Assembly (NCBI GenBank): GCA_040766655.1
Contig: JAXGQB010000013.1
Coordinates: 31-64,030, forward strand
Source: Anaerolineae bacterium
GTDB taxonomy: Bacteria; Chloroflexota; Anaerolineae; CG2-30-64-16
Direction of reading: 5' to 3'
Length of the DNA stretch: 64,000 nt
Shown: piece after piece, positions 6,818-42,200 of the stretch
Layout: each line of letters begins with the position of its first letter
Position numbering within the stretch: the first letter of the stretch is position 1
Notes under the pieces: model-generated
The model's database searches: none
Seen by the model: only the letters and a program-made list of their open reading frames with translations
Told to the model about the DNA's origin: nothing
Made by a program: the position numbers and the translations under genes

Positions 6818-7633
6818 ATGCGATCACAGCGCATTGTCTCCGGGGCCATCATGGTCGTCGCCAGCCTGATCGGGGTGGGCGCCTTCCTCTACCCGTTCTT
6901 CCTGCCGTCGTTGGGCGCGGAGGGCATGGCCGCGCACACGAGCGACGCGCCGCTGCTGACCGTCGTGCTGCTTGGACTGTGCCTGGTCGCGGTGTTCGTC
7001 AACCTGACGGGCCGGCAGATGACGAGCAAGCTGATCGCCGTGTTGGGCATGCTGACCGCGGTCAACGCCGTGCTGCGCGCGGTGCCCGGTCCTGCCGGCT
7101 TCAACGCGATCTTCGTGCTGCCCATCCTTGCGGGTTACGCGTACGGCGCAACCTTCGGCTTCCTGTTGGGCGCCCTGTCGCTCCTGGTCTCCGCGCTGAT
7201 CGGCGGCGGGATCGGGCCGTGGCTGCCCTATCAGATGTTCGCCACCGGGTGGATGGGCCTGCTCTCCGCCTTGCTGCCGAAGTTTCCCCAACACCGCCGG
7301 TGGGAGCCGGCCATGCTGGCCGTGTGGGGCGGGGTGTTGGGGCTGATCTTCGGCGCGATGATGAACATCTGGTTCTGGCCCTTCATGCAGGGGGGTGCGG
7401 GCGCGGTGGCTGAGGGTGGCGCCTTCACGCCGGGGATGAGCGCGTGGCAGACGCTGAGGAACTACGCGGTCTTCTACGTGGCCACCAGCCTGTGGTGGGA
7501 TGTTGCCCGGGCCGTGGGCAACGCGGCGCTCATCCTGCTCTTCGGTGGCGCGATCCTGCGGGTCCTGCGCCGGTTCAAGCGCCGGTTCGGCTTCGAGCTG
7601 GAGCCCGAAGTGCGCCTGGCTGAGACCGGTTAG
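6818..7633 (+). CDS. ECF transporter substrate-specific (S) component, probably corrinoid-specific by context
   Basis: Small, very hydrophobic multi-TM protein directly after ecfT and ecfA in the riboswitch-controlled operon. Substrate is inferred from context only. Confidence 0.6.
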   Translation: MRSQRIVSGAIMVVASLIGVGAFLYPFFLPSLGAEGMAAHTSDAPLLTVVLLGLCLVAVFVNLTGRQMTSKLIAVLGMLTAVNAVLRAVPGPAGFNAIFVLPILAGYAYGATFGFLLGALSLLVSALIGGGIGPWLPYQMFATGWMGLLSALLPKFPQHRRWEPAMLAVWGGVLGLIFGAMMNIWFWPFMQGGAGAVAEGGAFTPGMSAWQTLRNYAVFYVATSLWWDVARAVGNAALILLFGGAILRVLRRFKRRFGFELEPEVRLAETG

Positions 7634-7640
7634 GCGCGAA

Positions 7641-7663
7641 ACCTCCGAGGCAACCTCGGAGGT
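7641..7663. terminator. Bidirectional hairpin between the convergent ECF operon and selD
   Basis: acctccgagg-caa-cctcggaggt forms a perfect 10-bp stem. Confidence 0.5.
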
Positions 7664-7705
7664 TATCGGGGAGTGGCCCATCCTGCAGTCGGGCTGGTGA
7701 GTCGT

Positions 7706-8755
7706 CTAGACGATCTCGATCCCGTCGCCCTCGACGACCTCGCCGATCACCCACCACTCCTGATCCCGCTCGCTGCAGAAGTGCCCGAACGCGCCCAGGT
7801 TTGCCGCGGGCACCGCGATGAGCAGCCCGCCGGAGGTTTGCGGATCATGCAGCAGAATCTGCTGCCAGTCTGCGAGATCCCTGGCAATCGTCACGAGTTG
7901 GCCATAGAACGCCTGGTTGCTGAACGCGCCGCCGGCAAAGGTCCACCCCTCGGCGTAACCGAGGGCCCCGGGGAGCCACGGCAGGTCGTCGAACCGGATG
8001 CGGAAGCGTACCTGCGCGGCATCGCTCATCTCCAGCGCGTGGCCGAGGAACCCGAAGCCGGTGATGTCGGTGACGGCACGCACGCCGGACGCCTGGCAGG
8101 CCTGGGCCGCGACGCGGTTGAGGCGCGTCATGCTGCGGATGGCCGCATCGAGGTGCTCGGGCGCGACCGTGTCGCGCTTGACCGCGGTCGTGATGACGCC
8201 GGTGCCCAGGGGCTTGGTCAGCACCAGCGCATCTCCCGGACGCGCGCCGCCCTTCATCATGATGCGATGGGGGTGGACGATGCCGGTCACCGCCAGGCCG
8301 TATTTCGGTTCCATGTCCTGGATCGTGTGCCCGCCGGCAATCGCGGCGCCGACCGAGCGCACGACCTCGGCGCCGCCCCGCAGGATCTCGGCCAGCACGG
8401 AGGCCGGCACGTTGGGCGGGAACGCGGCGATATTGAGCGCGAACAGGACTTCCCCGCCCATGGCGTAGACGTCGCTCATCGCATTGGCGGCCGCGATCGC
8501 GCCGTACTCGTAGGGCGTATCGACGATGGGCGTGAAGAAGTCCACCGTCTGGATCAGCGCCTGTTCATCGTTGAGCCGGTAGACGGCCGCGTCGTCCGGC
8601 GTGCCGAGACCGACTAACAGATCGGGAAACTGGTCGGCAGGAAAAAGATTGTCGAAAGCGCGCAGAACCTGCGCAAGCTGCTCAGGCGGCAGCTTGGAGG
8701 CTCAGCCTGCGCAGGAGCTCAGACTGGTGAGCTTCAGGATCTCTTCACGGGTCAC
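7706..8755 (-). CDS. selD: Selenide, water dikinase (selenophosphate synthetase) SelD, a selenocysteine-containing form with in-frame UGA at 8702-8704
   Basis: Track ORF 7706..8545 is the SelD body (DVYAMGG, GGHTIQD, KPLGTG). Continuing upstream in the same frame gives [74 protein letters not shown]. Here TGA occupies the position of the catalytic Cys/Sec in the glycine-rich N-terminal loop. GTG at 8755 is preceded by the AGGAG RBS at 8762-8766. Confidence 0.85.
8674..8696 (-). promoter_or_regulatory. Bacterial SECIS-like hairpin 5 nt downstream of the selD UGA
   Basis: The mRNA reads UGA-gccuc-CAAGCUGC-cgccuga-GCAGCUUG, an 8-bp perfect stem with a 7-nt loop. Confidence 0.65.
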
Positions 8756-8796
8756 GAAATCACTCCTGCCCGGCGGTCGTGCATCGGGCGGGAGTG

Positions 8797-8825
8797 ATTA
8801 TAGGTCGCGTCGGCGAGCGGGTCAA
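8797..8825 (-). promoter_or_regulatory. Promoter TTGACC-N17-TATAAT for selD
   Basis: On the reverse strand, ttgacc (8820-8825) and tataat (8797-8802) are separated by a 17-nt spacer, about 40 nt upstream of the start codon. Confidence 0.5.
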
Positions 8826-8842
8826 ACGCCGCCAGCCTTCGT

Positions 8843-8871
8843 TTGACAATACTCGCACTTGCGGGTACAAA
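8843..8871 (+). promoter_or_regulatory. Promoter TTGACA-N17-TACAAA for the tandem DarA-like gene
   Basis: ttgaca at 8843-8848 and tacaaa at 8866-8871 with a 17-nt spacer. Confidence 0.4.
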
Positions 8872-8937
8872 AAGAGGACACCGTGGAAGACCGGAAGGAA
8901 TTTTGCCGCGCACGTCGTTGTTACGCTGGAGATCGCC

Positions 8938-9621
8938 ATGTTTCTGATGTTCCTCATCATACAAAGCGAGGACGCGGACGTCCTGACGCGGCGTCTCAAC
9001 AACTCGGGCGTGCGGGTCACCCGGCTCAACACGATGGGTGCATTTCTGTCGCGCGGCAACGTCACGTTCCTGGTGGGCGCTCGTGAGGATGAAGTCGAAC
9101 GGGTGATGGACGTGGTGCGCAGGACCTGTCACACGCGCAAGCGTTACATGAATCCCCTGCCGTCCGGCGCGGAGCCGGCCCATCTCGCGATGGCAGCACC
9201 GGCCTATCCGCTGGAGGTCATCATCGGCGGCGCCACGGTGTTCATCATACCGGTCGCGCGTTTCGCCCGTCTGGGGAGAGGCGCTTCTGCCGGTGAGCCC
9301 GAAACATCGCCATCCACGACTGGAGGAAAAGGCATGCAGATGGTAGTGAGCATCGTGGGTGCAGACGATGCGGAACCCGTGACCCGGGCATTGATCGCCG
9401 CGCGTTACCGCGTCACCCGCATGAACACTGCGGGCGGCTTCTTCCGCCGCGGCAACGTCACGTTGCTGATCGGAGTCGAGGAGTCGGAGGTGGATGACGT
9501 CCTCCGGGTGATCGACACGAGTGTCCGCCAGCGCGAGCAGGCCAACCCGGTCGAATCCGGCATGCCGATGTACGGTGCAACGGTGTTCGTGCTCGACGCG
9601 GCCCGCTTCGAACGCCTGTAA
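8938..9621 (+). CDS. Tandem-domain PII-like cyclic-di-AMP receptor family protein (two YaaQ/DarA-type domains)
   Basis: ATG at 8938 follows a GGAGA RBS. Domain 1 is MFLMFLIIQSEDADVLTRRLNNSGVRVTRLNTMGAFLSRGNVTFLVG. Domain 2 is MQMVVSIVGADDAEPVTRALIAARYRVTRMNTAGGFFRRGNVTLLIG. Both match the pattern of the single-domain paralogue at 19764. Confidence 0.7.
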   Translation: MFLMFLIIQSEDADVLTRRLNNSGVRVTRLNTMGAFLSRGNVTFLVGAREDEVERVMDVVRRTCHTRKRYMNPLPSGAEPAHLAMAAPAYPLEVIIGGATVFIIPVARFARLGRGASAGEPETSPSTTGGKGMQMVVSIVGADDAEPVTRALIAARYRVTRMNTAGGFFRRGNVTLLIGVEESEVDDVLRVIDTSVRQREQANPVESGMPMYGATVFVLDAARFERL

Positions 9622-9639: not shown

Positions 9640-10998
9640 CTAGCCGATCAGGAGTGTTTCCTCGGGGTAGAAGATCGGCTGAGGTGGCCTGGGCTTTGCG
9701 AGCGCGACCACGATCGTCAGCGCCCCCAGCCTGCCCCAGAACATCATCGCCATAATGATCATCTGGCCGAAGAGATTGAGCTGACCGGTAAACGAGAGCG
9801 ACATGCCGGTCGTGGCAAAGGCCGAGACCACCTCGAACAGGGCCACCGTGGCCGGAACCCGGTGCGTGATCAGGATCAGCCACGCGGCCGCGCCGACCGC
9901 CAGCAGCGACACGGTGAGCACCGCGCCGGCACGGCGCACCGTTTCAGCTGCCAGCGTGCGGTGGCCCACCCGTGTGTCCGGCAGACCGCGCACGTAGGAC
10001 CAAAGCGACAGGATCATGACGGCGAACGTCCCCGTGGTGATCCCGCCTCCCATGGAGGCAGGCGCCGAGCCGATGAACATGAGCGGCATCAGGAGCCACC
10101 GGCTCGCTTCGGTGAGGTATTCCCAGCTTGGCAGCACGGCAAAGCCCGCGGTGCGGGCTGAGATGGCCTGAAATGCCGCCAGCTGGATGGCCCTGAGCGG
10201 CGGCGTACCGGCGAGCGACGCCCCAGCTTCGCCGATGAGGATGCCGATTCCTCCGAGGAGAATGAGCGCGGCATAGGTCGCCAGCGTGACGCGCGTGTGG
10301 AGTGTCAGACGTTTGCGGCGATCGGGCCAGGTCAGCAGGTCCGCGACGACCGGTATGCCCAATCCTCCCAATACGATGAGAGATCCGATCACGGTGAGGC
10401 TGAAGCCATCGGTCGGAAATGAGGGACTTGGGGTCGATGACCCGGTGAACAGCTCGAAGCCGGCGTTGCAGAACGCTGACGCCGCATGGAACAGGGCGTA
10501 GAACGCCGCGGTGGCCGGCCCCAACTCATCCACCCAGTTCAGCCACAACTGCATCGCACCGATGACCTGGATGATCGCACTTGTCAGGATCACGCGCCAG
10601 GTAACGGTCAGGATGGCCCTCGGCTCGGGCAGGCCGAGCGAATCGCGGAGGGCCAACCGATCCGACAGGTAGACCTTGCGGCCCAGCAGGCGGAGGATTA
10701 CCACCGCGCCCGCCATGAACCCGACGCCGCCGATCTCGATGAGGCTGAGCAGGATGACCTGGCCGAAGCGGGTCAGATCGCTGGCAGGCGTGATGGTGGC
10801 CAGGCCGGTGACCGCCAGCGCGGAGGTGGCGGTGAACGCTGCCTCGGCCAGGCTGAGCGGCCGGGTGGCTGCCTGCGGCAGGGAGAGGGCCAGCGTCCCC
10901 ACTACGACGAGCAGCGCGAGTCCGGCGATTAACCTCAATGCCGAGGGCAGCAAGTAGTGCCGGCCCGGTTGTCGCAGGCCGGATGTCCGCCATCCCAT
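9640..10998 (-). CDS. ktrB: Potassium uptake protein, TrkH/KtrB family membrane subunit
   Basis: Polytopic protein with repeated pore-loop motifs (TATSALAVTGLATI, IEIGGVGFMAG, AFCNAGF, GGLGIPV). Confidence 0.85.
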   Translation of the reverse strand: MGWRTSGLRQPGRHYLLPSALRLIAGLALLVVVGTLALSLPQAATRPLSLAEAAFTATSALAVTGLATITPASDLTRFGQVILLSLIEIGGVGFMAGAVVILRLLGRKVYLSDRLALRDSLGLPEPRAILTVTWRVILTSAIIQVIGAMQLWLNWVDELGPATAAFYALFHAASAFCNAGFELFTGSSTPSPSFPTDGFSLTVIGSLIVLGGLGIPVVADLLTWPDRRKRLTLHTRVTLATYAALILLGGIGILIGEAGASLAGTPPLRAIQLAAFQAISARTAGFAVLPSWEYLTEASRWLLMPLMFIGSAPASMGGGITTGTFAVMILSLWSYVRGLPDTRVGHRTLAAETVRRAGAVLTVSLLAVGAAAWLILITHRVPATVALFEVVSAFATTGMSLSFTGQLNLFGQMIIMAMMFWGRLGALTIVVALAKPRPPQPIFYPEETLLIG

Positions 10999-27545: not shown

Positions 27546-29084
27546 TTATGGGGGCGGGCGGTAGTCGGCGGGGGTGTCGATGTCTTTGAGCACGTCGTCA
27601 GTGGGCCAGTCGACGTAGGCGACGCGGTGTTGGTGCTGGCGGATTATGGCGCGGGCGCCGGTGTCGCCGGTGAGTGCGGCGATGGCGGCGAAGGTGGTGC
27701 GGTCGAAGAGGACGGGGTTGCCCCGCTGGCCGGCATGCCTGGGCGCGACGACGGGCGCGAGGGTCTCGCGGTGGCGCTGGATGAGGGCGGTGAGGAGCTC
27801 GGGGGTGACCCCGGGCTGGTCGGCGAGGAGGAAAACGGCTGCTCCGGCGGGACCTGGGTCGGTCCCTACCGGCGGCGCCGGCGTGGGGGGCGCGCTGTGA
27901 CCTGGCCCTGCGGTGACGGCGGCGAGGCCGGCGCGCACGCTGCGACTCTGCCCCGCTGACCAGTCGGGCACGGCGACGATCTGCAGCCGGGGGTCGCCGG
28001 AGAGCACCCCCAGGGCGTCCCGAACTGCTGCCTCCTGCGCGCCGACGGTGACGGCGACCCGGTCGATGTCGGGGCAGGCCAGCGCCTGCCGGACGACGTG
28101 GGCGACCAGGGGCAGGCCTTCCCAGGGGAGCAGTTGCTTGAGAGAACCGTATCGCCGCGCCTCGCCGGCGGCCAGGACGACGGCATGGACGCGGCCCCAG
28201 ACCTCGTGGATGGGGTCGTCGGTCTGCGCCGCGCCGATGAGGACGGCAGACACGCGTGGGTGCTGGAGGAGGAGACGCGCGGTTTCGCGCGCGGCGGCCG
28301 GCGCCCGGGATTGAAGATTGAAGATGGGGCCAACTTCGTTGGCCCAAGATTGAAGATTTCGGTCCCCGGCATCTAGAATCCTGTCCCCAGTATCCGGTTC
28401 CCGTTCCGCAGTCCCCGATCCCCGTTCCCCGATCCCCGCTCCCACGTCGCTCTTGTTGATGAAGGGGACGAGGCGCGCGGCAGCCGTGCCTTTGGCGCCG
28501 CCGAGGGGGTGGGCAAGGACGGCGGCCACCATGGCGGGGGTAACGGGGTCGCCCAGGGATGCACCGGTCAGCGCGGCGACTCGCTCGGGGCGGTGGACGA
28601 ACTCGGCGGTCAGGGGGTGGCCGATGACGTCCAGCCCGACGATGGGCACGACGACGCTGGTGGCGGCGGGGATGACGGGCTCGTGAGCCGCCGGGGCCTT
28701 GAACGGCAGGCATCGGGCGCCGTCCGCCTCGATCACGATGACGTCGACCGAGGGGTGGGCGGCGATGCGGTCGATGAGTGCGCACCCGAGCCCCTGGACC
28801 TTCTCCTGCTCCACGATCGTGCCGCCCGCCAACAGCACGTGGCCGTGCTCGGCCAGGAGGCCGGGCAGCTGCGACAGGAGTGCACCCTCGCCCTGCAGCA
28901 CGAGCCGGGCCGGTGCGCGGGACATTTGCTCGACGAAGATCTTGGTGGTCATCGTGGTGACCACTTTGAGGCCATCCACCACGAGCTCATCGGCCAGCCG
29001 GAACATGAGCGTGGTCTTCCCGCCGCCGCCCACGAGGGCTACGACGTCGCCGGGGTGAATGCGGAGTGCGGTTCTGATCAACAT
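27546..29084 (-). CDS. Fusion protein: YqeC-type selenium-dependent hydroxylase accessory domain plus MocA/YgfJ-type molybdenum-cofactor cytidylyltransferase domain
   Basis: The N-terminal half has GDVVALVGGGGKTTLMFRLA...FINKSD (YqeC-like P-loop). The C-terminal half has VHAVVLAAGEARRYGSLKQLLPWEG...LLADQPGVTPE (MobA-like NTP transferase). Confidence 0.75.
   Translation of the reverse strand: MLIRTALRIHPGDVVALVGGGGKTTLMFRLADELVVDGLKVVTTMTTKIFVEQMSRAPARLVLQGEGALLSQLPGLLAEHGHVLLAGGTIVEQEKVQGLGCALIDRIAAHPSVDVIVIEADGARCLPFKAPAAHEPVIPAATSVVVPIVGLDVIGHPLTAEFVHRPERVAALTGASLGDPVTPAMVAAVLAHPLGGAKGTAAARLVPFINKSDVGAGIGERGSGTAEREPDTGDRILDAGDRNLQSWANEVGPIFNLQSRAPAAARETARLLLQHPRVSAVLIGAAQTDDPIHEVWGRVHAVVLAAGEARRYGSLKQLLPWEGLPLVAHVVRQALACPDIDRVAVTVGAQEAAVRDALGVLSGDPRLQIVAVPDWSAGQSRSVRAGLAAVTAGPGHSAPPTPAPPVGTDPGPAGAAVFLLADQPGVTPELLTALIQRHRETLAPVVAPRHAGQRGNPVLFDRTTFAAIAALTGDTGARAIIRQHQHRVAYVDWPTDDVLKDIDTPADYRPPP
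28308..28444. repeat. Composite element (GATTGAA array, GGGCCAAC-TTCG-TTGGCCC hairpin, CCCCGAT/CCAGTAT array) in frame inside the YqeC domain
   Basis: ggattgaagattgaagatggggccaacttcgttggcccaagattgaagatttcggtccccggcatctagaatcctgtccccagtatccggttcccgttccgcagtccccgatccccgttccccgatccccgctccc. Confidence 0.95.
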
Positions 29085-33662: not shown

Positions 33663-36158
33663 TTACCCCTTGTCCCGCAGGGCGCGCCAGACGCGCTCGG
33701 CGGTGAACGGGAAATCGTCGATGCGGACGCCGGTGGCGTCGTGGATGGCGGCGGCCACGGCGGCTGCGACGGGCAGATAGGGCACTTCGCCCATGCCGCG
33801 CGCGCCCCAGGGGCCGTTGGGATCGGGCACTTCGACGATGATGGACTGGAGCTCGGCGGGCACGTCGAGGATGGTGGGGATGAGGTAGGTGCTGAGCCGG
33901 TCGCTCAACACCCGCCCGTCCTGCGTCTTCCAGTCCTCGAGGAGGGCGTAGCCGAGGGCCTGGACGACAGCGCCCTCGATCTGGCCGACGACCTGCTGCG
34001 GGTTGATGGCCCGACCCACATCGTCGGCGCAGATGAATTTCTCGACGCGCACCTGGCCGGTCTCCATGTCGACCGCGACCTGGACGGCCTGGGCCGTGTA
34101 GCCATAGGCGAAGTTGGGCTGGCCGTAGCCGGTGTCGTGGTCCATCGTGGTGGTCTTGGGCGCCAGGTAGACGGTCTCGCCGACGGCGGGGCGCTCCTCG
34201 CTCTCCCAGGCGGCCAGCGCCTTTTCGGCCGCGGCCTTGACTGCGTTGCCGCTCATGTAGGTCAGGCGGGAGGCGGACGCGCTGCCGGAGCTGCCCATGA
34301 GGGATGTGTCTGAGACGACGACGCGCACCTTCGCCAGCGGCAGGCCGAGCACCTCGGCCGCGGCCTGGGCGATGATGGTGTGGTTGCCCTGGCCGCAGTC
34401 GGCGCCGGCGTAGTAGACGACTGCTTCGGCGATCTCGGCGCTGCCGCGCAACTCGACGCGCGCGTAGCTGTTTTCCTGGTAGCCGAGGGAGAAGCCGACG
34501 TTCTTGAAGCCGGCGACGAAGCCGATGCCGCGACGGATGCTGGCGCCGGACGCGGCCGGCGCCGATTGAAGATTGTCCTTCGACTGCGCGGCCGCTGCGG
34601 CGGCGCTCCGCTCAGGATGCCTGGTATCCGGTATCCGGTCCTTCGACTGCGCGGCCGCTGCGGCGGCGCTCCGCTCAGGATGCCTGGTATCCGGTATCCG
34701 ATCCCCGGTCTCTGCCTCCCGGTCCCCGGTCTCTGCCTCCCGATCCCCGGTCCCCGATCCCCAGTCCCCGGTCCCCGATCCCCGGTCGCCGGGATCCAGC
34801 AGGGCGGGGCGATGCCAGTGGCCGGCGGGGTCCTGCTGCCAGCCGGCGGCGGCCGCGGTGGCGATGACTGCGTCGGTGAGCCCCACGCCGCCGGGGATGG
34901 GCGTCCCGACGGTGAGGAGCTTGTCGGCGGTCAGGATGTTCTTCAGCCGCAGCTCGACGGGGTCCAGGCCCAGGGCCTCGGCGAGGCGATCCATCTGCAG
35001 CTCGGCGGCAAAGTGGCCCTGGGGCCCGCCGAAGCCGCGGAAGGCGGCGCCGGGGACGTTGTTGGTGTAGACGGCGTAGGTGTCGACCGCGACGTGGGGG
35101 ATCTCGTACGGCCCGGTGCAGGTCTGCGTGGTGTTGCCGAGCACCTTGTTGCTGGTGTACATGTACGCGCCGCCGTCCGCGATGACCCGCACCTCGACCG
35201 CGGTCAGCATGCCGTCGCGCCTGGCGCCCCAGCGGGTGTAGATCTTCATGGCGTGGCGCTTGCCGTGGCCGATGAGTGATTCCTCGCGCGTCCAGATCGT
35301 CTTGATGGGGCGGCCGCGCAACTCCTCACGCTGGCCCAGGCGCCAGGCGGCCAGGGCCAGGGTGATCTGCACGGACATGTCCTCGCGGCCGCCGAACGCA
35401 CCGCCGATGGCGGGGTAGATGACGCGCACCTGGTCGAGCGGCAGGTCGAGGGCATGGGCGATCTGCGCCTGGTCCTCGTGCGCCCACTGGCCGGCGACCT
35501 CGACGGTCACGCGGCCGGCTTCGTCCAGGTAGGCGACGCCCGCTTCCGGCTGGAGGTAGGCGTGTTCCTGGACCGGCGTCTGATAGATGTTCTCGATGAT
35601 GACGTCTGCCTCGGCGAAGCCCTGTGCCAGGTCGCCCTTGCGGATGCGGTAGCTGTAGCAGACGTTGCTGTCCCGGTTGGGATGCAGCAGCAGGGCCCCG
35701 GGCTGCATCGCCTCTTCGGCATCGAGCACGAGGGGCAGGTCCTCCCACTCGACCCGGATGAGCCTGGTGGCCGCGCGGGCCTGGGCTTCCGTCTCGGCCA
35801 CGACGAGCGCCACCTGGTCGCCGACGAAGCGCACTACGTCGGCGCCTGGCGCGGCTGACCCGGGACCGCAGAGCACGGGCTGATCCTTGATCTGCAGGCC
35901 GTAGGCGTTGACGGGAACGTCCTGCGCGGTGAAGACGGCCACGACCCCGGGTGCGGCCGCCGCCGCGGTCGTGTCGATGCTGAGCACGCGCGCATGCACT
36001 TTACCCGCGAAGAGGGTGGCCATGTGGAGCATGCCGGGATGCGCGATGTCGCCGGGATAGAGGGTCTTGCCGGTGACTTTGCCCGGCGCGTCGATGCGGC
36101 GGGCGCTGGCTCCGACGCCATCAGGAGAGGGATTGGCTGCGGAAGATGGTGCGCTCAT
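33663..36158 (-). CDS. Xanthine dehydrogenase family molybdopterin-binding subunit (set 1)
   Basis: Start [10 protein letters not shown]...RIDAPGKVTGKTLYPGDI is at 36158, and ATGA overlaps the upstream stop. GGAFGGRED, AFRGFGGPQG and a GQIEGAVVQALGYALLE-type C-terminal motif are present. The track start 36746 is a spurious extension. Confidence 0.85.
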   Translation of the reverse strand: MSAPSSAANPSPDGVGASARRIDAPGKVTGKTLYPGDIAHPGMLHMATLFAGKVHARVLSIDTTAAAAAPGVVAVFTAQDVPVNAYGLQIKDQPVLCGPGSAAPGADVVRFVGDQVALVVAETEAQARAATRLIRVEWEDLPLVLDAEEAMQPGALLLHPNRDSNVCYSYRIRKGDLAQGFAEADVIIENIYQTPVQEHAYLQPEAGVAYLDEAGRVTVEVAGQWAHEDQAQIAHALDLPLDQVRVIYPAIGGAFGGREDMSVQITLALAAWRLGQREELRGRPIKTIWTREESLIGHGKRHAMKIYTRWGARRDGMLTAVEVRVIADGGAYMYTSNKVLGNTTQTCTGPYEIPHVAVDTYAVYTNNVPGAAFRGFGGPQGHFAAELQMDRLAEALGLDPVELRLKNILTADKLLTVGTPIPGGVGLTDAVIATAAAAGWQQDPAGHWHRPALLDPGDRGSGTGDWGSGTGDREAETGDREAETGDRIPDTRHPERSAAAAAAQSKDRIPDTRHPERSAAAAAAQSKDNLQSAPAASGASIRRGIGFVAGFKNVGFSLGYQENSYARVELRGSAEIAEAVVYYAGADCGQGNHTIIAQAAAEVLGLPLAKVRVVVSDTSLMGSSGSASASRLTYMSGNAVKAAAEKALAAWESEERPAVGETVYLAPKTTTMDHDTGYGQPNFAYGYTAQAVQVAVDMETGQVRVEKFICADDVGRAINPQQVVGQIEGAVVQALGYALLEDWKTQDGRVLSDRLSTYLIPTILDVPAELQSIIVEVPDPNGPWGARGMGEVPYLPVAAAVAAAIHDATGVRIDDFPFTAERVWRALRDKG
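34564..34790. repeat. Composite in-frame insertion in the Mo subunit: GATTGAA, then a 63-bp unit duplicated in tandem (34575-34637, 34638-34700), then a CCCCGGT/CCCCGAT/CCCCAGT array
   Basis: gtccttcgactgcgcggccgctgcggcggcgctccgctcaggatgcctggtatccggtatccg occurs twice. Translated as RIPDTRHPERSAAAAAAQSKD twice, preceded by GDRGSGTGDWGSGTGDREAETGDREAETGD. Confidence 0.95.
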
Positions 36159-37657
36159 GGGACCGCCTTCTCGACCGCTTCGAGTATCTTGTAGTAGCCG
36201 GTGCAGCGACACAGGTTGCCGGTCAGCGCTTCCTTGATCTGGCCCGGGGTCGGGTGTTCGACCTCTTCCAGCAGATTCGCGGCCGACATGAGGATGCCGG
36301 GGGTGCAATAGCCGCACTGAACCGCAGCGGCTTCGATGAACGACTGCTGCAGCGGGTGGAGGACGATGGTTTCGTCTTGCACCTGGGCCAGGCCTTCGAC
36401 CGTGACGACGTTGCAGCCCTCCGCGCGCTCGGCAGGCACCAGGCAGCTCATGACCGCGATGCCGTCGAGCCAGACGGTGCACGCACCGCACTCGCCCTCG
36501 TCGCACCCTTCCTTGGTGCCGGTGAGGCCGGCGTCCTCGCGCAGTGCGCGCAGGAGGGTCTTGCCGCGGGCGTGCGGCAGCTCGACGGGCTGGCCGTTGA
36601 GGGTGAAGCGGATCGGTGCATCCGGGCCGACGTGGCCTGGGCCGGCGGGGCCCAGGTCGACGGGGCCAAGGTCGGCCCCTACGGTGTCCCGGCCGCCCGT
36701 ATGCGGCGCCGCATGGCCGTTGCCATCGCGGCCGTGCTTGCCCCACAGCAGCACGGGCCGCTCAGGCCACCCGACCTGGCCCTGGCTGGCCTCGCGTTCG
36801 GTGCCGTCGCGCAACTGCCGCAGCGCGCGGGCGGTGTACACGCCGACCATCTCGCGGCGGTAGTCGGCTCCGGCCCGGATATCCGTGATCGGCCGGGAGG
36901 CCGCGGAAACGAGTTGCGCTGCGTGCTCGACCACATCCTCGCTGAGTTGCTTGCCGGCCAGGTAGGCCTCCGCCTCCGCCGCGCGCAGGATCGTCGGCGC
37001 GACTGCACCCATGGCAATGCGCGCCCGCGTGACCCGGCCGTCGCCGTCGAAATCGAGGACCGCGGCCACATTCAGCAGGCTGATCGCCTGTGCCTGGCGC
37101 AGGCCCAGCTTGAGAAACGTCCCGCGCTCGCTCGGCCTGAGGATCGGCACGTCGATACGGACGACCATCTCGTCGGGCTGGAGTGCGGTGCGGCGCACGC
37201 CGTGGAAGAACTCGCCGAACGCCAGGGTGCGCTCGCCGCGGGCCGCGCTGGCCAGCGTGATCCTGGCGTCCATGGCCCAAAGGGGCGTAATCGTATCGTT
37301 TGCCGGGCTGGCCGTCACCAGGTTGCCGGCCACGGTCCCGCGGTTGCGGATCTGTGGTGCGCCCACCAGCCAGCACGCACGCGCCAGGGGAAACGCATGT
37401 TGCACCGCCAGATCACTGCCGACGACTTGATTGTGGGTGACAGCAGCGCCGAGCGTCAGGACATCGCCGCTCAGAGTGATCTCGTCCAGCCCGGCCACGC
37501 GCGAAACGTCCATCAGGATTTTCTGCGAGCGCACGCCGCGCTCCAATTCCAGGATCAGATCGGTGCCGCCCGACATCACACGGCAGGACTCGCCGTGCTG
37601 GGCCAGCAACGCGAGTGCTTCTTCGATTGTCGATGGTGCATGATAGCTATGCCACAT
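36155..37657 (-). CDS. Fused FAD-binding (CoxM/XdhB-like) and [2Fe-2S] (CoxS/XdhC-like) subunit of xanthine dehydrogenase family enzyme (set 1)
   Basis: ATG 37657 ([24 protein letters not shown]) starts the FAD domain ([22 protein letters not shown]). After the linker comes [10 protein letters not shown]...[12 protein letters not shown]...CGYCTPG...LCRCTGY. Confidence 0.8.
36622..36685. repeat. GTAGGGGCCGAC-type repeat forming the linker between the FAD and FeS domains
   Basis: tccgggccgacgtggcctgggccggcggggcccaggtcgacggggccaaggtcggcccctacgg. Translated as [22 protein letters not shown]. Confidence 0.8.
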
Positions 37658-37672
37658 AGATATCCTCACTTT

Positions 37673-37837
37673 TGGGGACTGGGGACTGGGGATCGGGGAC
37701 TGGGGACCAGCATCCAGCATCCAGTATCCAGCATCCAGGGATGTAGGGCGTGCCACCAGGCTGGGTGGCCGGGCCACCAGGCTGGGTGGCCTTAAGGACG
37801 GGCACCAGGCCCTATGCTACTGGGGCCTGGTGCCCGG
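37673..37837. repeat. Intergenic mosaic: GGGGACT array, CCAGCAT array, two 21-bp GCCACCAGGCTGGGTGGC hairpin units, and a 12-bp-stem hairpin
   Basis: ggggactggggactggggatcggggactggggaccagcatccagcatccagtatccagcatcc...gccaccaggctgggtggccgggccaccaggctgggtggcc...gggcaccaggccctatgctactggggcctggtgccc. Confidence 0.95.
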
Positions 37838-37847
37838 GCCTTTGGGC

Positions 37848-39185
37848 TTAGCCGACCCGCTTCCAGACCTGCACGGCCAACTCCCGTGCACGAGCCATGA
37901 TCGCAGCTTCGTCGAGCGTTGTCAACTGGCGATCCTTCATCAGCACCTTGCCGGAAGCAATGGTGTGCGTCACGACCGCGGCATCCACGCCGAACAGGAT
38001 GTGCCACGGCAGGTTGCCCGGCGAAAGGGGCGTGGGCGGGTCATAATCCCACACGACCAGGTCGGCAAACGCGCCGGGCGTGATCTCGCCCAGCGGCTTG
38101 GGGAAGAATACCCGCGCCAGATCCGCGTTGTTCGCGTACTGCATGGCCAGCACCACGTCGCCCGGCATCGTGCGCGGATCGCGCGTGTTGTGCTTGTGCG
38201 CCAGGTAGGTGGCCTTCATCTCGTCGACCATGAAGTTCGAGAACCCGTCGTTGCCGAGCGCGACCGGGATGCCGCTTGCCAGCATGCCTGTGACGTCCGG
38301 CAGTCCGACCGCGTTGTTCATGTTCGAGCGCGGCTGGTGCGTCACGTGCGTGCGCGTCTCGCGCAGGATGTCCTTCTCGTACGCGTCGAGGTGCACGCAG
38401 TGGACGGCGATCGATTTTGGCCCGAGAATGCCATGGTTGTGCAGCCGCTCGACCACGCGCATGTTGTACTTGCGCAGGCTGTGGTCCTGATCGGCCTGAT
38501 CCTCCGCGACGTGGATGTGGAAGCCGGTGTCCAGGCCCTGGGCCGCGGCCACCGAGTTATCGAGCGTCTCGTCGGACAGCGTCAGGGCCGCGTGCAGGCC
38601 GAACGAGCCGGCGAGCTGCGGGTCCTTCTCCGCACGGCAGCGTTTGAGCCAGCGAACGTTCTCCGCGATGCCGGCCGCCGCGCCGTCCATGCCGTTACGG
38701 TCGGTCACTTCGTAGCAGAGGCTGGCGCGCAGTCCGGCCTCCTTGACCGCCTCGGCAATGACGTCCAGGCTGCCATCGATCGCGTTCGGGCTGGCGTGGT
38801 GGTCGATCAGCGTGGTGCAGCCGTGCTTCACGGCATCCACCAGGCAGATGAGGGCGCTGTACTTCACGTCCTCCCACAGCAGCGCCATGTCGAGATTCCA
38901 CCACAGCTTCTCGAGGATCTCCACGAAGTTGGTCGCAGGCGCGCCGGGAATGGCCATGCCGCGGGAGAACACGCCGTAGAAGTGGGTGTGGCCGCATGGC
39001 ATGCCGGGAAGGACGACCTTGCCGCCCACGTTGAGCCGCTCTGCGTGCGGATGGCGGGCGAGCAACTCCGCGGTGGTCCCGACCTCTGCGATCGTGTCGC
39101 CTTCGATGTAGACCGCGCCGTCAGGAATCAGCTCGTTGGCGGCCCCCAGGGTGAACACCCGCCCATTGGTTACCAGTAAACTCAT
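37848..39185 (-). CDS. ssnA: SsnA-type amidohydrolase (chlorohydrolase/deaminase superfamily, selenium-metabolism-linked family)
   Basis: The N-terminus MSLLVTNGRVFTL...VVLPGMPCGHTHFYGVFSRGM parallels the E. coli SsnA HNHFYSGLSRG region. Metal ligands HxH and a downstream HVAE are present. Confidence 0.75.
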   Translation of the reverse strand: MSLLVTNGRVFTLGAANELIPDGAVYIEGDTIAEVGTTAELLARHPHAERLNVGGKVVLPGMPCGHTHFYGVFSRGMAIPGAPATNFVEILEKLWWNLDMALLWEDVKYSALICLVDAVKHGCTTLIDHHASPNAIDGSLDVIAEAVKEAGLRASLCYEVTDRNGMDGAAAGIAENVRWLKRCRAEKDPQLAGSFGLHAALTLSDETLDNSVAAAQGLDTGFHIHVAEDQADQDHSLRKYNMRVVERLHNHGILGPKSIAVHCVHLDAYEKDILRETRTHVTHQPRSNMNNAVGLPDVTGMLASGIPVALGNDGFSNFMVDEMKATYLAHKHNTRDPRTMPGDVVLAMQYANNADLARVFFPKPLGEITPGAFADLVVWDYDPPTPLSPGNLPWHILFGVDAAVVTHTIASGKVLMKDRQLTTLDEAAIMARARELAVQVWKRVG

Positions 39186-39202
39186 GTGAGTCTCCTTGTT
39201 CC

Positions 39203-42200
39203 TTATTCGATGATCAGGTGCGGCAGCGTATCGGTCACACCCTTCAGGAGGACGGCCAGCTCGGCCGCATCGCGCAGAGACAGCGAGCCGGTGAACTGCT
39301 TCCGAACCGCTACGTCACGGACCTCGAAGTCGTGGGTCAGCACGATGCGCGCCTCGGGGCACTCATACACCAGGTGGCCGTTGTCGCGGCTGAGCCGGGT
39401 CTCGCGGCCCATATCGCGATGCCGGATGACGCGGCAATCGCTGTTGCGATTGCCGTTGGTGATGCGATAGGCATTGTGATTCTCTGCCAGGAAGTCCTTC
39501 TCGTTCAGGAAGAGGCGCGGCTTGTCCAGCCAGGGCTGGCCGTGATGCACGCAGAAGGTGGTGCAGTCGCCGCACGCATTGCAGAAGTCGTTGATGTTGA
39601 TGATCTGCCGCTCCTGGCCGATCACGAAGCGCTCGTAGCCTGTCACGCGCGCCGCGTCTCTCGTCATGGTCAGGCGGGGCAGCATGACGTCGACGGGGCG
39701 CATCAGGAAGGTCTGGTTCGCGCGGTTGGGGCACACCTCGACGCACTTGTCGCAGAAGGTGGTGCACTGCACGCAGCGCGCGGCCTCCGCCTCGGCCTGC
39801 TCGCGGGTGAAGCTCAGATCGATGAGGTCGAAGCTCTGGCGCAGCTCGATCGGCAGCATGTTGGTGGGCACCTGCGGCAGCTTGCGCGCGCGCACGTGCT
39901 TGACCTCGGTGATCTCCTCGGCAGTGAGGCGGGGCATGTCCGCCGGCGGCTGGTCGAACGGAACGCCGAACTGCCAGCAGATCGACTCGGCCGCGCGGCG
40001 TCCGTCGCCGCACGCAGCGATGATGCTTTCGGGCCCGGCCTCGGCCGCGTCGCCGCCCGCGTAGACGCCGGGGACGCCGGTGCTGCCGCTGGTGTGGTCG
40101 ATGGCGATGCCGCCATCGCTGCACACCGTCACGACGCTGCCTTCCAGGAATGCGAAGTCAGGGTTCTGGCCGACGGCCACGATCACGGTGTCGCAGGGGA
40201 TCTGGAACTCGCTGCCAGGGATCGCAACCGGCCTGCGACGGCCGTCCGGCCCGGGCTCGCCCAGCTCGTTGCGCAGGCACTCCAACGCCACGACGGCGCC
40301 GGCGTCTCCGGCGCTGGGGCCTTCCCCGGCGCGCACGACGCGCACGGGCGTGGTGAGCTCGAGGAGGACGTTGCCTTCCTCCAGCGCGCCCTCGATCTCC
40401 TCGATGCTGGCCGGCATCTCCTGGCGGGTGCGGCGGTAGACGATGGTGGTCGGGTTGCCGGTCAGGCGCTGCGAGGTGCGCACCGCGTCCATGGCCGTGT
40501 CGCCGCCGCCGATCACCAACGCTTTGCTGCCCAGGTGCGGCCTCTCGCCGCGGCGGGTGCGATCCAGCAGGGTGAGCGCGGCCCACACGCCGGGGCCATC
40601 CATGCCGGGGATGCGCAAGGGGGTGTCCCGCTGGAAGCCCGTTGCGAGATATACGGCGTCGAACCCCTGATCGAGTAGCTTTTCCGGCGCACCGGTGATG
40701 GGATGGTTCAGCGCCAGCTGGACGCCCATGCCCAGGACGCGATCCACGTCGCGCTGGATGACTTCCCACGGCAGGCGGAACACCGGCACCATGCGCATCA
40801 TGCCCGCGATGACGTCCTTCGCCTCGAAGATGGTCACGTCGATGCCGTTGAGCGCCAGGTAGAAAGCGGCCGACCAGCCCGATGGGCCCGAGCCGATCAC
40901 GGCCGCCCGCTTGCCCACTTTTTCCTTGGGAACCAGCGGGGTCGCGACGCCGTTTTCCTCCGCGTAGCGTTTCAGCGCGCGGATGGCGACCGTCTCTTCG
41001 TAGTCGTTGCGCACGCAGCGCGTCTGGCACAGGTGATTGCAGACGTACCCCGTGACGCCCGGCAGCGGATTGCGTGCCAGGATCACGTCCAGCGCCTTGT
41101 CAGGGTCGCCTTCCTTGATCCACCAGTTGTATTCCGGCACATCCTGGCAGACCGCGCATTGCTCCATGCACGGCGCCACGATGCAGTCCCACAGGCCCAG
41201 GCCCGACCGCACCTTGGGCAGGCCGTAGGGCACGTATTCCTTCTTCCACCGGTGATCGGTGAGCGCGGCGGCCGCGGCGGCCTGCAGGTTCTCCAGCTTG
41301 TTGGCGGAGAACTGCTCGAGGCTCGTCGCGCCGGCCGCAGCCATGGCGGCGCCGAGGTTGTCCAGCCACTGGGAGAAGCGGGCGTAGCCGCCGGGCTTCA
41401 GCAGGTCGGAGCACGCCGTGATGGGAACCGGCCCGCACGAGGCGATCGTGGCGACGTTCAGGGCGTCGGCGCCGGCCGAGTAGGAGACGCGCAGGTTGCC
41501 GTTGAACTCGTGCGCCAGCTTGTTGAACAGGTTCATGGTCACCGGGTAGAGCGCACGGCCCGACATGTACATCTCGTCGCCGGGCATCACCTGCTTGTGG
41601 TTGTGCATGGCGAGGGTGTTGCTCAGCTTGACGCCGAAGGCCAGCCCCTGCTGCGCAGCCACTGTCTGCATCCGGCGGATGAGTCCGACGGCCTTGTCGT
41701 ACGCGATGTCGTGCTCGAAGACGGAATCGGGGATGTAGATCTCCTTGAAGCCCAGGGCATTGTGCAGGATATCGAGCACCTGCTCTTTACCGAGCAGCGT
41801 GGGGTTCATCTTGACGATCGTGTGCAGCTTGCGCTCGGTCAGGAGATACTCGGTGATGCGCTCGATCTCATCCGGCGGGCAGCCGTGCATGGTGGACAGC
41901 GTGATGCTGTTCGCGATGCTGTCGGGAATCTCGATGTCGGCGAACTGGGGGAAGTCGCGGCGCAGGATGGCCTTGATCTGGGCCACCTCTTCCGCGGCGT
42001 TCTCCATCTTGTTCATGAAGTTGACCACGCGCGGGCTCTGGATGCCCTCGAGGTTATAGCCGACGCTCATGTCGAAGATGGCGCCCATCGAATGGGCGCC
42101 CACGGACTGGGCACCGACGGGCGGGGTGACACCGTCCCTGCCGTCCCAACCCAGGATGCGCGGCAGGAGGTGGAGGATTGCCCACGCGACCACATACTCG

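What the first reader, a model, noticed from the sequence alone, without database searches (positions are those of the whole stretch)
7706..8755. selD is itself a selenoprotein: in-frame UGA with SECIS hairpin, truncated in the ORF track
The 279-aa track ORF lacks the catalytic N-terminal loop. Reading through TGA at 8702-8704 restores a 349-aa SelD whose active-site loop reads SSCAG-U-ASK. An 8-bp-stem hairpin follows 5 nt downstream, and a good RBS precedes GTG 8755, with a TTGACC-N17-TATAAT promoter upstream.

This implies a complete Sec-insertion machinery (selA, selB, selC) elsewhere in the genome. It also provides the selenium donor for the hydroxylase cluster 19 kb away.
Basis: partly seen in the sequence, partly recalled or inferred. 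Interest (0 to 1): 0.6.

Follow-up and report, generated by a model that had tools for sequence, protein, structure and literature searches.

The report
Selenocysteine-type selD, ordinary and genuine
The gene is a normal selenophosphate synthetase (SelD) that carries selenocysteine at its active site, encoded by an in-frame UGA; this is real, but it is a long-known and very common arrangement, so the "truncated ORF" is only a gene-calling artefact.

Summary
On the minus strand a 349-codon frame (GTG 8755 to TAG 7706) has one in-frame TGA (8704..8702). Read through, it is a full-length SelD (TIGR00476, 379 bits against a cut-off of 125). The TGA falls on the column of E. coli Cys17.

The same TGA is present in 108 of 110 related selD loci, mostly Anaerolineae. 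The genome also encodes selA, selB and tRNA-Sec(UCA), and at least three other selenoprotein genes (fdhA, a peroxiredoxin, a DsbA-like protein). The promoter, RBS and start codon are confirmed. The link to the selenium cofactor is supported too: YqeC, an XDH-family hydroxylase, SsnA and YgfK lie in the window, and YqeB lies elsewhere in the genome.

One correction concerns the SECIS. However, it is too close to the UGA (13 nt) and its loop lacks the G[G/U] motif.

A second hairpin right after it (HP2, 8674..8660, GCGCA-GGUUC-UGCGC, 32-33 nt from the UGA) meets all three sequence and geometry criteria of the published bacterial SECIS model. It resembles the SECIS loops of this genome's other Sec genes. 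Cys-type relatives have lost it. HP2 is probably the SelB-binding site.

Sec-type SelD is the second most widespread bacterial selenoprotein, so novelty is low.

The parts
7706..8755 (-). selD coding sequence: 349 codons plus TAG, GTG start, Sec at codon 18
   Evidence: TIGR00476 scores 379 bits (cut-off 125) and NF002098 scores 361 bits (cut-off 299). AIRS and AIRS_C domains. E = 2e-74 to E. coli SelD 3u0o.
8702..8704 (-). Sec codon UGA (codon 18), on the column of E. coli Cys17
   Evidence: TGA at this column in 108 of 110 related loci, TGC in two.
8674..8696 (-). Probably an accessory or spacer hairpin.
   Evidence: A hairpin at this place occurs in nearly all Sec-type relatives, with different sequences and registers (AAUGCC/GGCAUU, GGGCC/GGCCC, GGUCC/GGACC, GAGUC/GACUC). 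It is weakened in Cys-type relatives.
8660..8674 (-). HP2: GCGCAG-GUU-CUGCGC (or GCGCA-GGUUC-UGCGC), 32-33 nt from the UGA to the loop. Probable SelB-binding SECIS core.
   Evidence: 98.7% of cells are paired in the window's lineage and 88.7% in the rest. Compensatory pairs occur (GC to AU/GU at 48-52, GC to UA at 43-57; GCGC to GCUC/GAGC). Mean -10.5 against -4.7 kcal/mol for synonymous recodings. Lost in Cys-type relatives that keep the AQVL peptide. Fits the bSECIS model quoted from PMC13188914. The loop resembles those of fdhA, Prx and DsbA-like SECIS elements in the same genome.
8763..8767 (-). Shine-Dalgarno AGGAG, 7 nt before the GTG start
   Evidence: The start column is a start codon in 24 of 24 orthologues.
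8797..8825 (-). Sigma-70-like promoter TTGACC-N17-TATAAT
   Evidence: 11 of 12 matches, one site found against 0.1 expected.
8543..8545 (-). Internal GTG where the table-11 ORF call (279 aa) begins; an artefact of treating the UGA as a stop
7640..7664 (-). 11-bp hairpin AACCUCCGAGG-UUG-CCUCGGAGGUU between the convergent selD and the 6818..7633 ORF. A possible terminator, but with no U tract.
   Evidence: Read. Not flagged by the terminator scan.
27546..29084 (-). YqeC (selenium cofactor biosynthesis) fused to a MocA-like cytidylyltransferase; a second consumer pathway for SelD's product
   Evidence: TIGR03172 scores 172.6 bits (cut-off 73). PF19842 and PF12804.
33663..42604 (-). Cluster of an XDH-family molybdenum hydroxylase (large subunit; FAD/FeS subunit), SsnA and YgfK
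   Evidence: PF02738, PF20256 and PF01315. TIGR03314 SsnA scores 513 bits (cut-off 455) and TIGR03315 YgfK scores 889 bits (cut-off 835). The hydroxylase subunits score below every equivalog cut-off.

Best explanation
This is an ordinary, functional selD gene of an Anaerolineae (Chloroflexota) bacterium, and its catalytic N-terminal loop carries selenocysteine.

Shown:
- A full-length SelD frame is interrupted only by UGA at the Cys17-equivalent column.
- That UGA is conserved across the class and much of the phylum.
- The complete bacterial Sec machinery (selA, selB, tRNA-Sec) is in the same genome.
- UGA is otherwise an ordinary stop codon here.
- Two conserved hairpins follow the UGA.

Inferred mechanism: transcription starts from the TTGACC/TATAAT promoter and translation from GTG 8755. 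When UGA 8704..8702 reaches the A site, SelB-GTP-Sec-tRNA(Sec), tethered to the mRNA just downstream, delivers Sec instead of release.

The tether is most likely HP2 (8674..8660, loop GGUUC, 32-33 nt from the UGA); I put this at about 0.65. It may fold away about 17-23 nt so that HP2 sits at an effective distance near the 10-13 nt spacer seen in this genome's Prx and fdhA genes, or it may pause the ribosome at the UGA.

The product, selenophosphate, feeds Sec synthesis (including SelD's own). It very probably also feeds the YqeB/YqeC-dependent selenium cofactor of the molybdenum hydroxylase cluster in the window. The 279-aa ORF is an artefact of reading the UGA as a stop.
For: Identity of the gene:
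- TIGR00476 scores 379 bits against a cut-off of 125, with the match starting at residue 8, upstream of the UGA.
- AIRS and AIRS_C domains are present.
- U18 aligns to Cys17 and K21 to Lys20 of E. coli SelD 3u0o, and to Aquifex 2yye/2zod.

Conservation:
- All full-length selD matches in the 39 relatives that have a match (of 41 genomes searched) carry exactly one in-frame TGA.
- 108 of 110 loci have TGA at the column and 2 have TGC.
- In a sample of 301 genomes of the phylum, 220 have selD, and about 90% of the listed matches carry 1 TGA.

Machinery and other Sec genes:
- selA scores 573 bits. selB scores 303 + 38 bits in one 653-aa frame. tRNA-Sec scores 74 bits and has anticodon TCA.
- Other Sec genes are fdhA and a Prx and a DsbA-like protein.
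- TGA is a normal stop for 4 of 15 window genes.

Start of the gene: promoter; the start column is ATG, TTG or GTG in 24 of 24 orthologues.

HP2:
- Pairing is 91% overall, with 4 of 6 pairs changed on both sides, and 98.7% / 88.7% by group.
- It is 5.8 kcal/mol more stable than synonymous recodings, and falls within the best 5% of recodings in 57 of 103 sequences.
- Cys-type genes in the mixed family f44 keep the AQVL peptide, but HP2 falls from about -9 to about -3 kcal/mol and HP1 from about -11.5 to about -6.5 kcal/mol.
- HP2 is conserved with covariation in other families of the phylum.
- It fits the bSECIS model: loop of 3-9 nt, stem of 4-16 bp, G in the first two loop positions, 16-37 nt from the UGA (PMC13188914).
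- Its loop resembles the GGUC and GGUCU loops of Prx and fdhA in this genome.

Selenium cofactor link: YqeC, SsnA, YgfK and an XDH-family enzyme; YqeB.
Against: - There is no direct evidence of translation or selenium incorporation; everything is comparative.
- The genome is an 88%-complete, 75-contig MAG with 4.5% contamination. Co-residence of selA, selB and selC with selD on different contigs is therefore inferred, although relatives show the same pattern.
- In most relatives HP1 starts 11 nt after the UGA. From memory, that is where the E. coli minimal SECIS hairpin sits. HP1 also covaries and decays in Cys forms, so it could be the SelB site.
- In the window's own sequence, a fold that includes the UGA prefers an extended HP1 that consumes half of HP2 (-21.7 kcal/mol). 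The two-hairpin fold scores -19.2 kcal/mol for the piece without the UGA.
- The GU of the HP2 loop is also the first two bases of a conserved Val codon.
- The hydroxylase subunits score below every NCBIfam equivalog cut-off, so their dependence on selenium is inferred from context.
Confidence: 0.92

Rival explanations
1. The gene is a Sec-type selD as above, but the first reader's hairpin HP1 (8696..8674) is the SelB-binding SECIS. HP2 is then only an accessory or a coding-constrained element.
For: - HP1-type hairpins occur in nearly all Sec-type relatives, with many compensatory changes.
- In most relatives HP1 begins 11 nt after the UGA, with the loop 15-17 nt away. From memory, that is the classical position.
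- HP1 weakens in Cys-type genes.
- In lineages lacking HP2, HP1 alone must serve, and its loop then often carries G[GU] (11 of 19).
Against: - In the window the HP1 loop CGCCUGA lacks G[G/U], and the distance from UGA to loop is 13 nt, below the model's 16-37 nt.
- HP1 loops are unconstrained where HP2 is present (CCGA, CUGA, UUC, CCG, AUG ...). Only 16 of 110 fit G[GU].
- The three other Sec genes of this genome all use G/C-GU loops.
- HP1 is only 3 kcal/mol better than synonymous recodings, against 5.8 for HP2.
- The register and length of HP1 drift between lineages while HP2 is fixed.
Confidence: 0.25
2. The TGA is a true stop. The gene is a pseudogene, or is expressed as a 279-aa protein from the internal GTG 8545 that lacks the N-terminal loop.
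For: Under table 11 the ORF caller gives only the 279-aa piece.
Against: - The TGA sits at the same column in 108 of 110 relatives spanning about 53-94% identity.
- The 17 residues before it are conserved, and the start column, RBS and promoter are intact.
- The SelD HMM match begins upstream of the TGA.
- The truncated product would lack the catalytic Sec/Cys and Lys residues.
- The Sec machinery is present.
Confidence: 0.01
3. The UGA is read through by something other than Sec-tRNA: an alternative genetic code (UGA = Trp or Gly) or near-cognate suppression inserting Cys or Trp.
For: None specific. It is only that read-through itself is not demonstrated.
Against: - TGA ends PriA, AhpC/TSA, the XDH FAD/FeS subunit and Memo at their expected C-termini in the window (domain coverage).
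- The column is Cys in Cys-type homologues, as expected for Sec.
- Dedicated tRNA-Sec, selA and selB are present.
- The downstream hairpins co-vary with the presence of TGA.
Confidence: 0.02

Closest known systems
Sec-type bacterial SelD (selenophosphate synthetase, TIGR00476), for example in Haemophilus influenzae, Aquifex aeolicus, Moorella, Geobacter and many Deltaproteobacteria and Clostridia
   Same: Same family, same domain order, and Sec at the same single position in the N-terminal Gly-rich loop. The gene autoregulates in kind, because SelD needs its own product to be made. The literature calls FdhA and SelD the most widespread bacterial selenoproteins (PMC1794560) and calls SelD the second most expansive family (PMC13188914). 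19% of SelD genes in a reference set are Sec-type, always at the same position (PMC4561486).
   Different: Nothing essential differs. The host is an uncultured Anaerolineae MAG. The loop reads CAG-U-ASK rather than the GAG-C-GCK of E. coli.
E. coli SelD (Cys17 type; PDB 3u0o)
   Same: Alignable over residues 4-343 (E = 2e-74). Lys20, the AIRS fold and the conserved ATP-site motifs match.
   Different: E. coli has Cys (UGC) at the catalytic column and no SECIS. Here the column is UGA/Sec followed by two hairpins.
Consensus bacterial SECIS (bSECIS model of Zhang and Gladyshev, as summarised in PMC13188914). From memory, the E. coli fdhF and Moorella fdhA SECIS have GGUC-type loops.
   Same: HP2 has a 5-6 bp G+C-rich stem and a 3-5 nt loop beginning G-G-U. 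Its spacing of 32-33 nt lies within 16-37 nt. It sits inside the coding sequence directly after the UGA.
   Different: The spacing is near the upper limit, and the interval is filled by a separate conserved hairpin (HP1) rather than by a lower stem of the same hairpin. The fdhA and Prx genes of the same genome use the classical single hairpin at 17-18 nt.
Selenium-dependent molybdenum hydroxylase trait (SelD + YqeB + YqeC; Haft and Self 2008, PMC2276186)
   Same: YqeC and YqeB score above their curated cut-offs. An XDH-family enzyme lies with SsnA and YgfK neighbours, as in the E. coli ygfK-ssnA-xdhD region.
   Different: selD is not adjacent to yqeB or yqeC. YqeC is fused to a MocA-like cytidylyltransferase. 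The hydroxylase fits no named equivalog.

Membership tests
SelD / selenide, water dikinase (TIGR00476, NF002098) | Whole-protein HMM score above the curated equivalog cut-off | tested here: met
   TIGR00476 scores 379.1 bits (cut-off 125) and NF002098 scores 361.4 bits (cut-off 299).
SelD / selenide, water dikinase (TIGR00476, NF002098) | AIR-synthase-related N- and C-terminal domains in order | tested here: met
   PF00586 covers residues 54-160 and PF02769 covers residues 172-348.
SelD / selenide, water dikinase (TIGR00476, NF002098) | Cys or Sec at the E. coli Cys17 column and Lys at the Lys20 column of the N-terminal loop | tested here: met
   U18 aligns to C17 and K21 to K20 in the alignment to 3u0o. 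The Aquifex 2yye alignment places the same column.
SelD / selenide, water dikinase (TIGR00476, NF002098) | ATP-dependent selenophosphate synthesis | not testable with these tools
   This needs an enzyme assay.
Bacterial selenoprotein gene (Sec-UGA recoding) | In-frame UGA aligned to Cys in homologues and conserved among orthologues | tested here: met
   TGA in 108 of 110 loci and TGC in 2. Cys-type genes occur elsewhere in the phylum. E. coli has Cys17.
Bacterial selenoprotein gene (Sec-UGA recoding) | selA, selB and tRNA-Sec in the same genome | tested here: met
   All score over their cut-offs, but the genes lie on other contigs of an 88%-complete MAG.
Bacterial selenoprotein gene (Sec-UGA recoding) | bSECIS downstream of the UGA: loop of 3-9 nt, stem of 4-16 bp, G in the first two loop positions (usually G[G/U]), 16-37 nt from UGA to loop | tested here: met
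   HP2 at 8674..8660 has a 5-6 bp stem, a GGUUC/GUU loop and 32-33 nt spacing. I did not see the model's free-energy threshold and did not test it; bSECISearch itself was not run.
   HP1 has 13 nt from UGA to loop (below 16). Its loop is CGCCUGA, where G is followed by C.
Bacterial selenoprotein gene (Sec-UGA recoding) | Selenium actually incorporated at the UGA | not testable with these tools
   This needs 75Se labelling or mass spectrometry.
Selenium-dependent molybdenum hydroxylase trait | YqeB and YqeC marker proteins together with SelD | tested here: met
   YqeC (TIGR03172) scores 172.6 bits (cut-off 73). YqeB (TIGR03309) scores 338 bits (cut-off 220).
Selenium-dependent molybdenum hydroxylase trait | A hydroxylase recognised as a selenium-dependent equivalog (TIGR03311 or TIGR03313) | tested here: not met
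   The large subunit scores 446 bits against 830 for TIGR03311 and 294 bits against 1102 for TIGR03313. It is in the XDH family, but selenium dependence rests on gene context only.

The most novel reading that the evidence does not exclude
In Chloroflexota, selD may use a two-hairpin SECIS. A sequence-variable, covarying hairpin (HP1) sits where the classical SECIS sits. A sequence-conserved G-GU-loop hairpin (HP2) follows at 32-33 nt and is the actual SelB site. HP1 would serve as a fold-away spacer or pause element.

The roles appear to swap between lineages. Where HP2 has been lost, the HP1 loop itself tends to carry G[GU] (11 of 19, against 16 of 110). If this is real and not yet described, it would be a distinct architectural class of bacterial SECIS.
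Probability: 0.3. Interest if true: 0.4.

Novelty: already known. Interest (0 to 1): 0.17.

Why it matters
For annotation, the 279-aa call should be replaced by a 349-aa selenoprotein with a translation exception at codon 18. The organism should also be scored as using selenium in two ways: for selenocysteine, and for the YqeB/YqeC selenium cofactor. No selU (selenouridine synthase) was found in the 88%-complete assembly.

Biologically this adds nothing unexpected. Sec-type SelD is among the two commonest bacterial selenoproteins, and it is the rule in this phylum.

The only mildly new point is structural. The selD recoding signal in this clade consists of two conserved hairpins, and the one a reader spots first is probably not the one that binds SelB. 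That matters for SECIS predictors and for heterologous expression of such genes.

Tried and rejected
- An Rfam scan of 7000..9500 at E <= 10 gave only chance hits (IRES, snoRNA, miRNA), all far below their gathering scores.
- Folding the single sequence is not convincing on its own (z = -1.76).
- A single fixed-register structure for HP1 across all 103 sequences fits poorly: 70.9% of cells are paired. The hairpin shifts register between lineages, with loop spacing of 13-17 nt. I therefore used per-sequence hairpin finding and synonymous-recoding controls instead.
- selU (TIGR03167) was not found in the genome, which is 88% complete.
- The earlier-findings index had nothing on selenoproteins in this genome.
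- My own TGA-plus-hairpin scan gave 109 candidates, most of them noise. Only the four sites (three families) recognisable by motif and Pfam were kept. The scan also missed selD itself, because it required 30 open codons upstream of the TGA.
- I considered and rejected a pseudogene, the internal start, and an alternative genetic code (see rivals).
- I did not run the large protein-database searches or a structure prediction. The family assignment was already unambiguous.

Full report
**Observation**

The minus strand of 7706..8755 was read and translated.
- Under table 11 the ORF list holds only a 279-aa ORF, 8545..7706.
- The same frame stays open upstream to GTG 8755..8753, apart from one TGA at 8704..8702.
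- Reading that codon as Sec gives 349 aa with the N-terminal loop [13 protein letters not shown].
- AGGAG (8767..8763) lies 7 nt before the GTG.
- A TTGACC-N17-TATAAT promoter lies at 8825..8797. It is the only sigma-70-like site found in 1.5 kb, against 0.1 expected.
- The hairpin CAAGCUGC-CGCCUGA-GCAGCUUG occupies 8696..8674 and begins 5 nt after the UGA.

Every stated feature is therefore present.

**What the protein is**

- The read-through product scores 379 bits on the SelD equivalog TIGR00476 (cut-off 125) and 361 bits on NF002098 (cut-off 299). The match begins at residue 8, upstream of the UGA.
- It has the AIRS and AIRS_C domains.
- Against solved structures it aligns over residues 4-343 to E. 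coli SelD (3u0o, E = 2e-74). U18 falls on Cys17 and K21 on Lys20. It also aligns to Aquifex aeolicus SelD.

The UGA thus sits exactly on the single column where SelD proteins carry Cys or Sec.

**Is the UGA decoded as Sec?**

- The window's genome is a 75-contig, 88%-complete MAG. It encodes selA (573 bits). It encodes selB, as one 653-aa frame that matches both the EF-Tu-like part and the C-terminal part.
- It encodes a tRNA-Sec (74 bits on RF01852; ARAGORN calls tRNA-SeC with anticodon TCA).
- TGA is otherwise a normal stop. It ends four of fifteen family-assigned genes in the window.
- In 41 genomes searched (the window's own plus 40 relatives of the same class), 39 have selD, and every full-length copy has exactly one in-frame TGA.
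- Over 110 loci from that search and from a scan of GTDB species genomes, the column is TGA in 108 and TGC in 2. The alignment is ungapped and the residues before the UGA are conserved. The record titles place these loci mostly in Chloroflexota, class Anaerolineae.
- In a sample of 301 genomes of the phylum, 220 have selD, and about nine in ten of the listed matches carry the TGA.
- The codon at the column of GTG 8755 is ATG, TTG or GTG in all 24 orthologues of the window's lineage.

A pseudogene, an internal start at 8545, or an alternative genetic code are therefore all very unlikely.

**Other selenoprotein genes in the genome**

- An fdhA-type formate dehydrogenase has HCARL-U-HSP.
- My own scan for open frames around a TGA with a downstream hairpin found two more families. 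Two copies of a peroxiredoxin have DFTFV-U-PTE, and a DsbA-like protein has FSDFQ-U-PYC. Pfam confirmed both as AhpC/TSA and DSBA/Thioredoxin_4.

The organism clearly has an active Sec trait.

**The recoding signal**

Two hairpins follow the UGA.
- HP2 is GCGCAG-GUU-CUGCGC (8674..8660). It can also be read as GCGCA-GGUUC-UGCGC.

Both are supported comparatively.

*HP1.* A hairpin always occupies this place, but with very different sequences and shifting register. Examples are GCUGC/GCAGC in the window's lineage, AAUGCC/GGCAUU, GGGCC/GGCCC, GGUCC/GGACC, GAGUC/GACUC and AUCGG/CCGAU. These are many compensatory changes.

*HP2.*
- It is paired in 98.7% of cells in the window's lineage and 88.7% elsewhere. 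Compensatory and wobble variants occur (G-C to A-U or G-U at the loop-closing pair, G-C to U-A at the base).
- Other families of the phylum show GGCUCAG/CUGAGCC and UGACGCA/UGCGUCA variants.

*Controls.*
- Against 200 synonymous recodings per gene, drawn with each gene's own codon usage, the HP2 region is 5.8 kcal/mol more stable on average (-10.5 against -4.7). It falls within the best 5% in 57 of 103 sequences. The HP1 region is 3.0 kcal/mol more stable.
- One family contains both types. Its Cys-type genes keep nearly the same peptide (KMGxxxLAQVLQP) but use codons that no longer pair. HP2 falls from about -9 to about -3 kcal/mol, and HP1 from about -11.5 to about -6.5 kcal/mol.

Both hairpins are therefore tied to the UGA.

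**Which hairpin binds SelB?**

The published consensus model, quoted from PMC13188914, asks for a 3-9 nt loop and a 4-16 bp stem. It also asks for a G in the first two loop positions, usually G[G/U], and 16-37 nt between the UGA and the loop.
- HP2 meets all of these (loop GUU/GGUUC, 5-6 bp, 32-33 nt).
- HP1 in the window does not (13 nt; loop CGCCUGA).
- The other Sec genes of the same genome use UGGCGGC-GGUC-GCCGCCA at 17 nt (Prx), GUCUCC-GGUCU-GGGGAC at 18 nt (fdhA) and CCGGCU-CGUGA-AGCCGG at 26 nt (DsbA-like). All are G/C-GU loops like HP2.
- Across 129 distinct Sec-type selD 5' regions, 110 have an HP2 with such a loop. In these the HP1 loops are unconstrained, and only 16 fit G[GU].
- Of the 19 without a clear HP2, 11 have a G[GU] loop in HP1. 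This suggests that HP1 can take over the role. The sequences are related, so this count is suggestive only.

I conclude, at about 0.65, that HP2 is the SelB site and HP1 is an accessory. Folding HP1 away would bring HP2 to an effective 10-13 nt from the UGA, close to the 10-12 nt spacers of Prx and fdhA. That step is inference.

Evidence on the other side:
- In most relatives HP1 starts 11 nt after the UGA. From memory, that is the classical position of the E. coli minimal SECIS.
- In the window's own RNA, an extended HP1 that invades HP2 is a competitive fold (-21.7 kcal/mol with the UGA included).

**Selenium cofactor link**

- 18.8 kb from selD lies a YqeC-MocA fusion (TIGR03172, 172.6 bits against a cut-off of 73).
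- It is followed by an XDH-family large subunit, a FAD/FeS subunit, SsnA (513 bits against 455) and YgfK (889 bits against 835).
- YqeB is on another contig (338 bits against 220).

This is the marker set of the selenium-dependent molybdenum hydroxylase trait (PMC2276186). The hydroxylase itself is below every equivalog cut-off, so its dependence on selenium is contextual. selU was not found.

**Comparison with what is known, and verdict**

[quoted passage not shown] - 19% of SelD genes in a reference set are Sec-type, always at this position, and such genes are "usually misannotated" (PMC4561486).

The finding is therefore correct but already known in kind. The truncated ORF is the standard gene-caller artefact. 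The only modestly new point is the conserved tandem-hairpin layout of the selD recoding signal in this phylum, and the likely mis-assignment of the SECIS to the first hairpin.

Noticed in passing
G000 C56:513682-516552 (+), TGA at 514837: An fdhA-type molybdopterin formate dehydrogenase has in-frame UGA (HCARL-U-HSPTV). A classical SECIS follows: a 12-nt spacer, then GUCUCC-GGUCU-GGGGAC.
   Followed up: partly
G000 C10:28632 (+) and C56:436718 (+): Two near-identical peroxiredoxin (AhpC/TSA) genes carry Sec at the peroxidatic position (FYPGDFTFV-U-PTE). The SECIS is UGGCGGC-GGUC-GCCGCCA, 17 nt from the UGA. They may be true paralogues or an assembly duplication.
   Followed up: partly
G000 C12:141222 (+): A membrane-anchored DsbA-like oxidoreductase has a U-P-Y-C active site (FSDFQ-U-PYC). 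The hairpin CCGGCU-CGUGA-AGCCGG lies 26 nt from the UGA, inside a longer stem.
   Followed up: partly
window 8779..9621 (+) and 9640..10998 (-): A protein with two cyclic-di-AMP receptor (PF06153) domains is divergent from selD. It lies next to a TrkH-family potassium transporter, a plausible c-di-AMP / potassium regulatory pair.
   Followed up: no
window 27546..29084 (-): YqeC (selenium cofactor biosynthesis) is fused to a MocA/YgfJ-like molybdenum cofactor cytidylyltransferase in one 512-aa ORF. The fusion joins Se-cofactor and MCD-cofactor maturation.
   Followed up: no
window 7640..7664: A perfect 11-bp hairpin (AACCUCCGAGG-UUG-CCUCGGAGGUU) lies between the convergent selD and the 6818..7633 membrane-protein ORF. 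Neither strand has a U tract, so the terminator scan did not flag it.
   Followed up: no
relatives G014, G020, G021, G022, G024: Several genomes of the same family carry two full-length Sec-type selD paralogues, about 56-59% identical to the window's protein. The window's genome shows only one.
   Followed up: no
L092, L108, L119, L160, L164, L165, L169, L174 (5' regions of selD in other Chloroflexota): These Sec-type selD genes lack the conserved second hairpin. In all of them the first hairpin's loop carries GG or GU (GGG, CGGGC, GUC, GGC, CGGGU), unlike the loops seen where the second hairpin is present.
   Followed up: partly
L069, L077, L094, L114, L118, L122, L124: Near-identical Anaerolineae-type selD 5' regions, with the same two hairpins, occur in MAGs labelled Acidobacteriota, Chitinispirillaceae, Fermentibacteria, Spirochaetales and Eisenbacteria. 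This is either horizontal transfer or mis-binned contigs.
   Followed up: no
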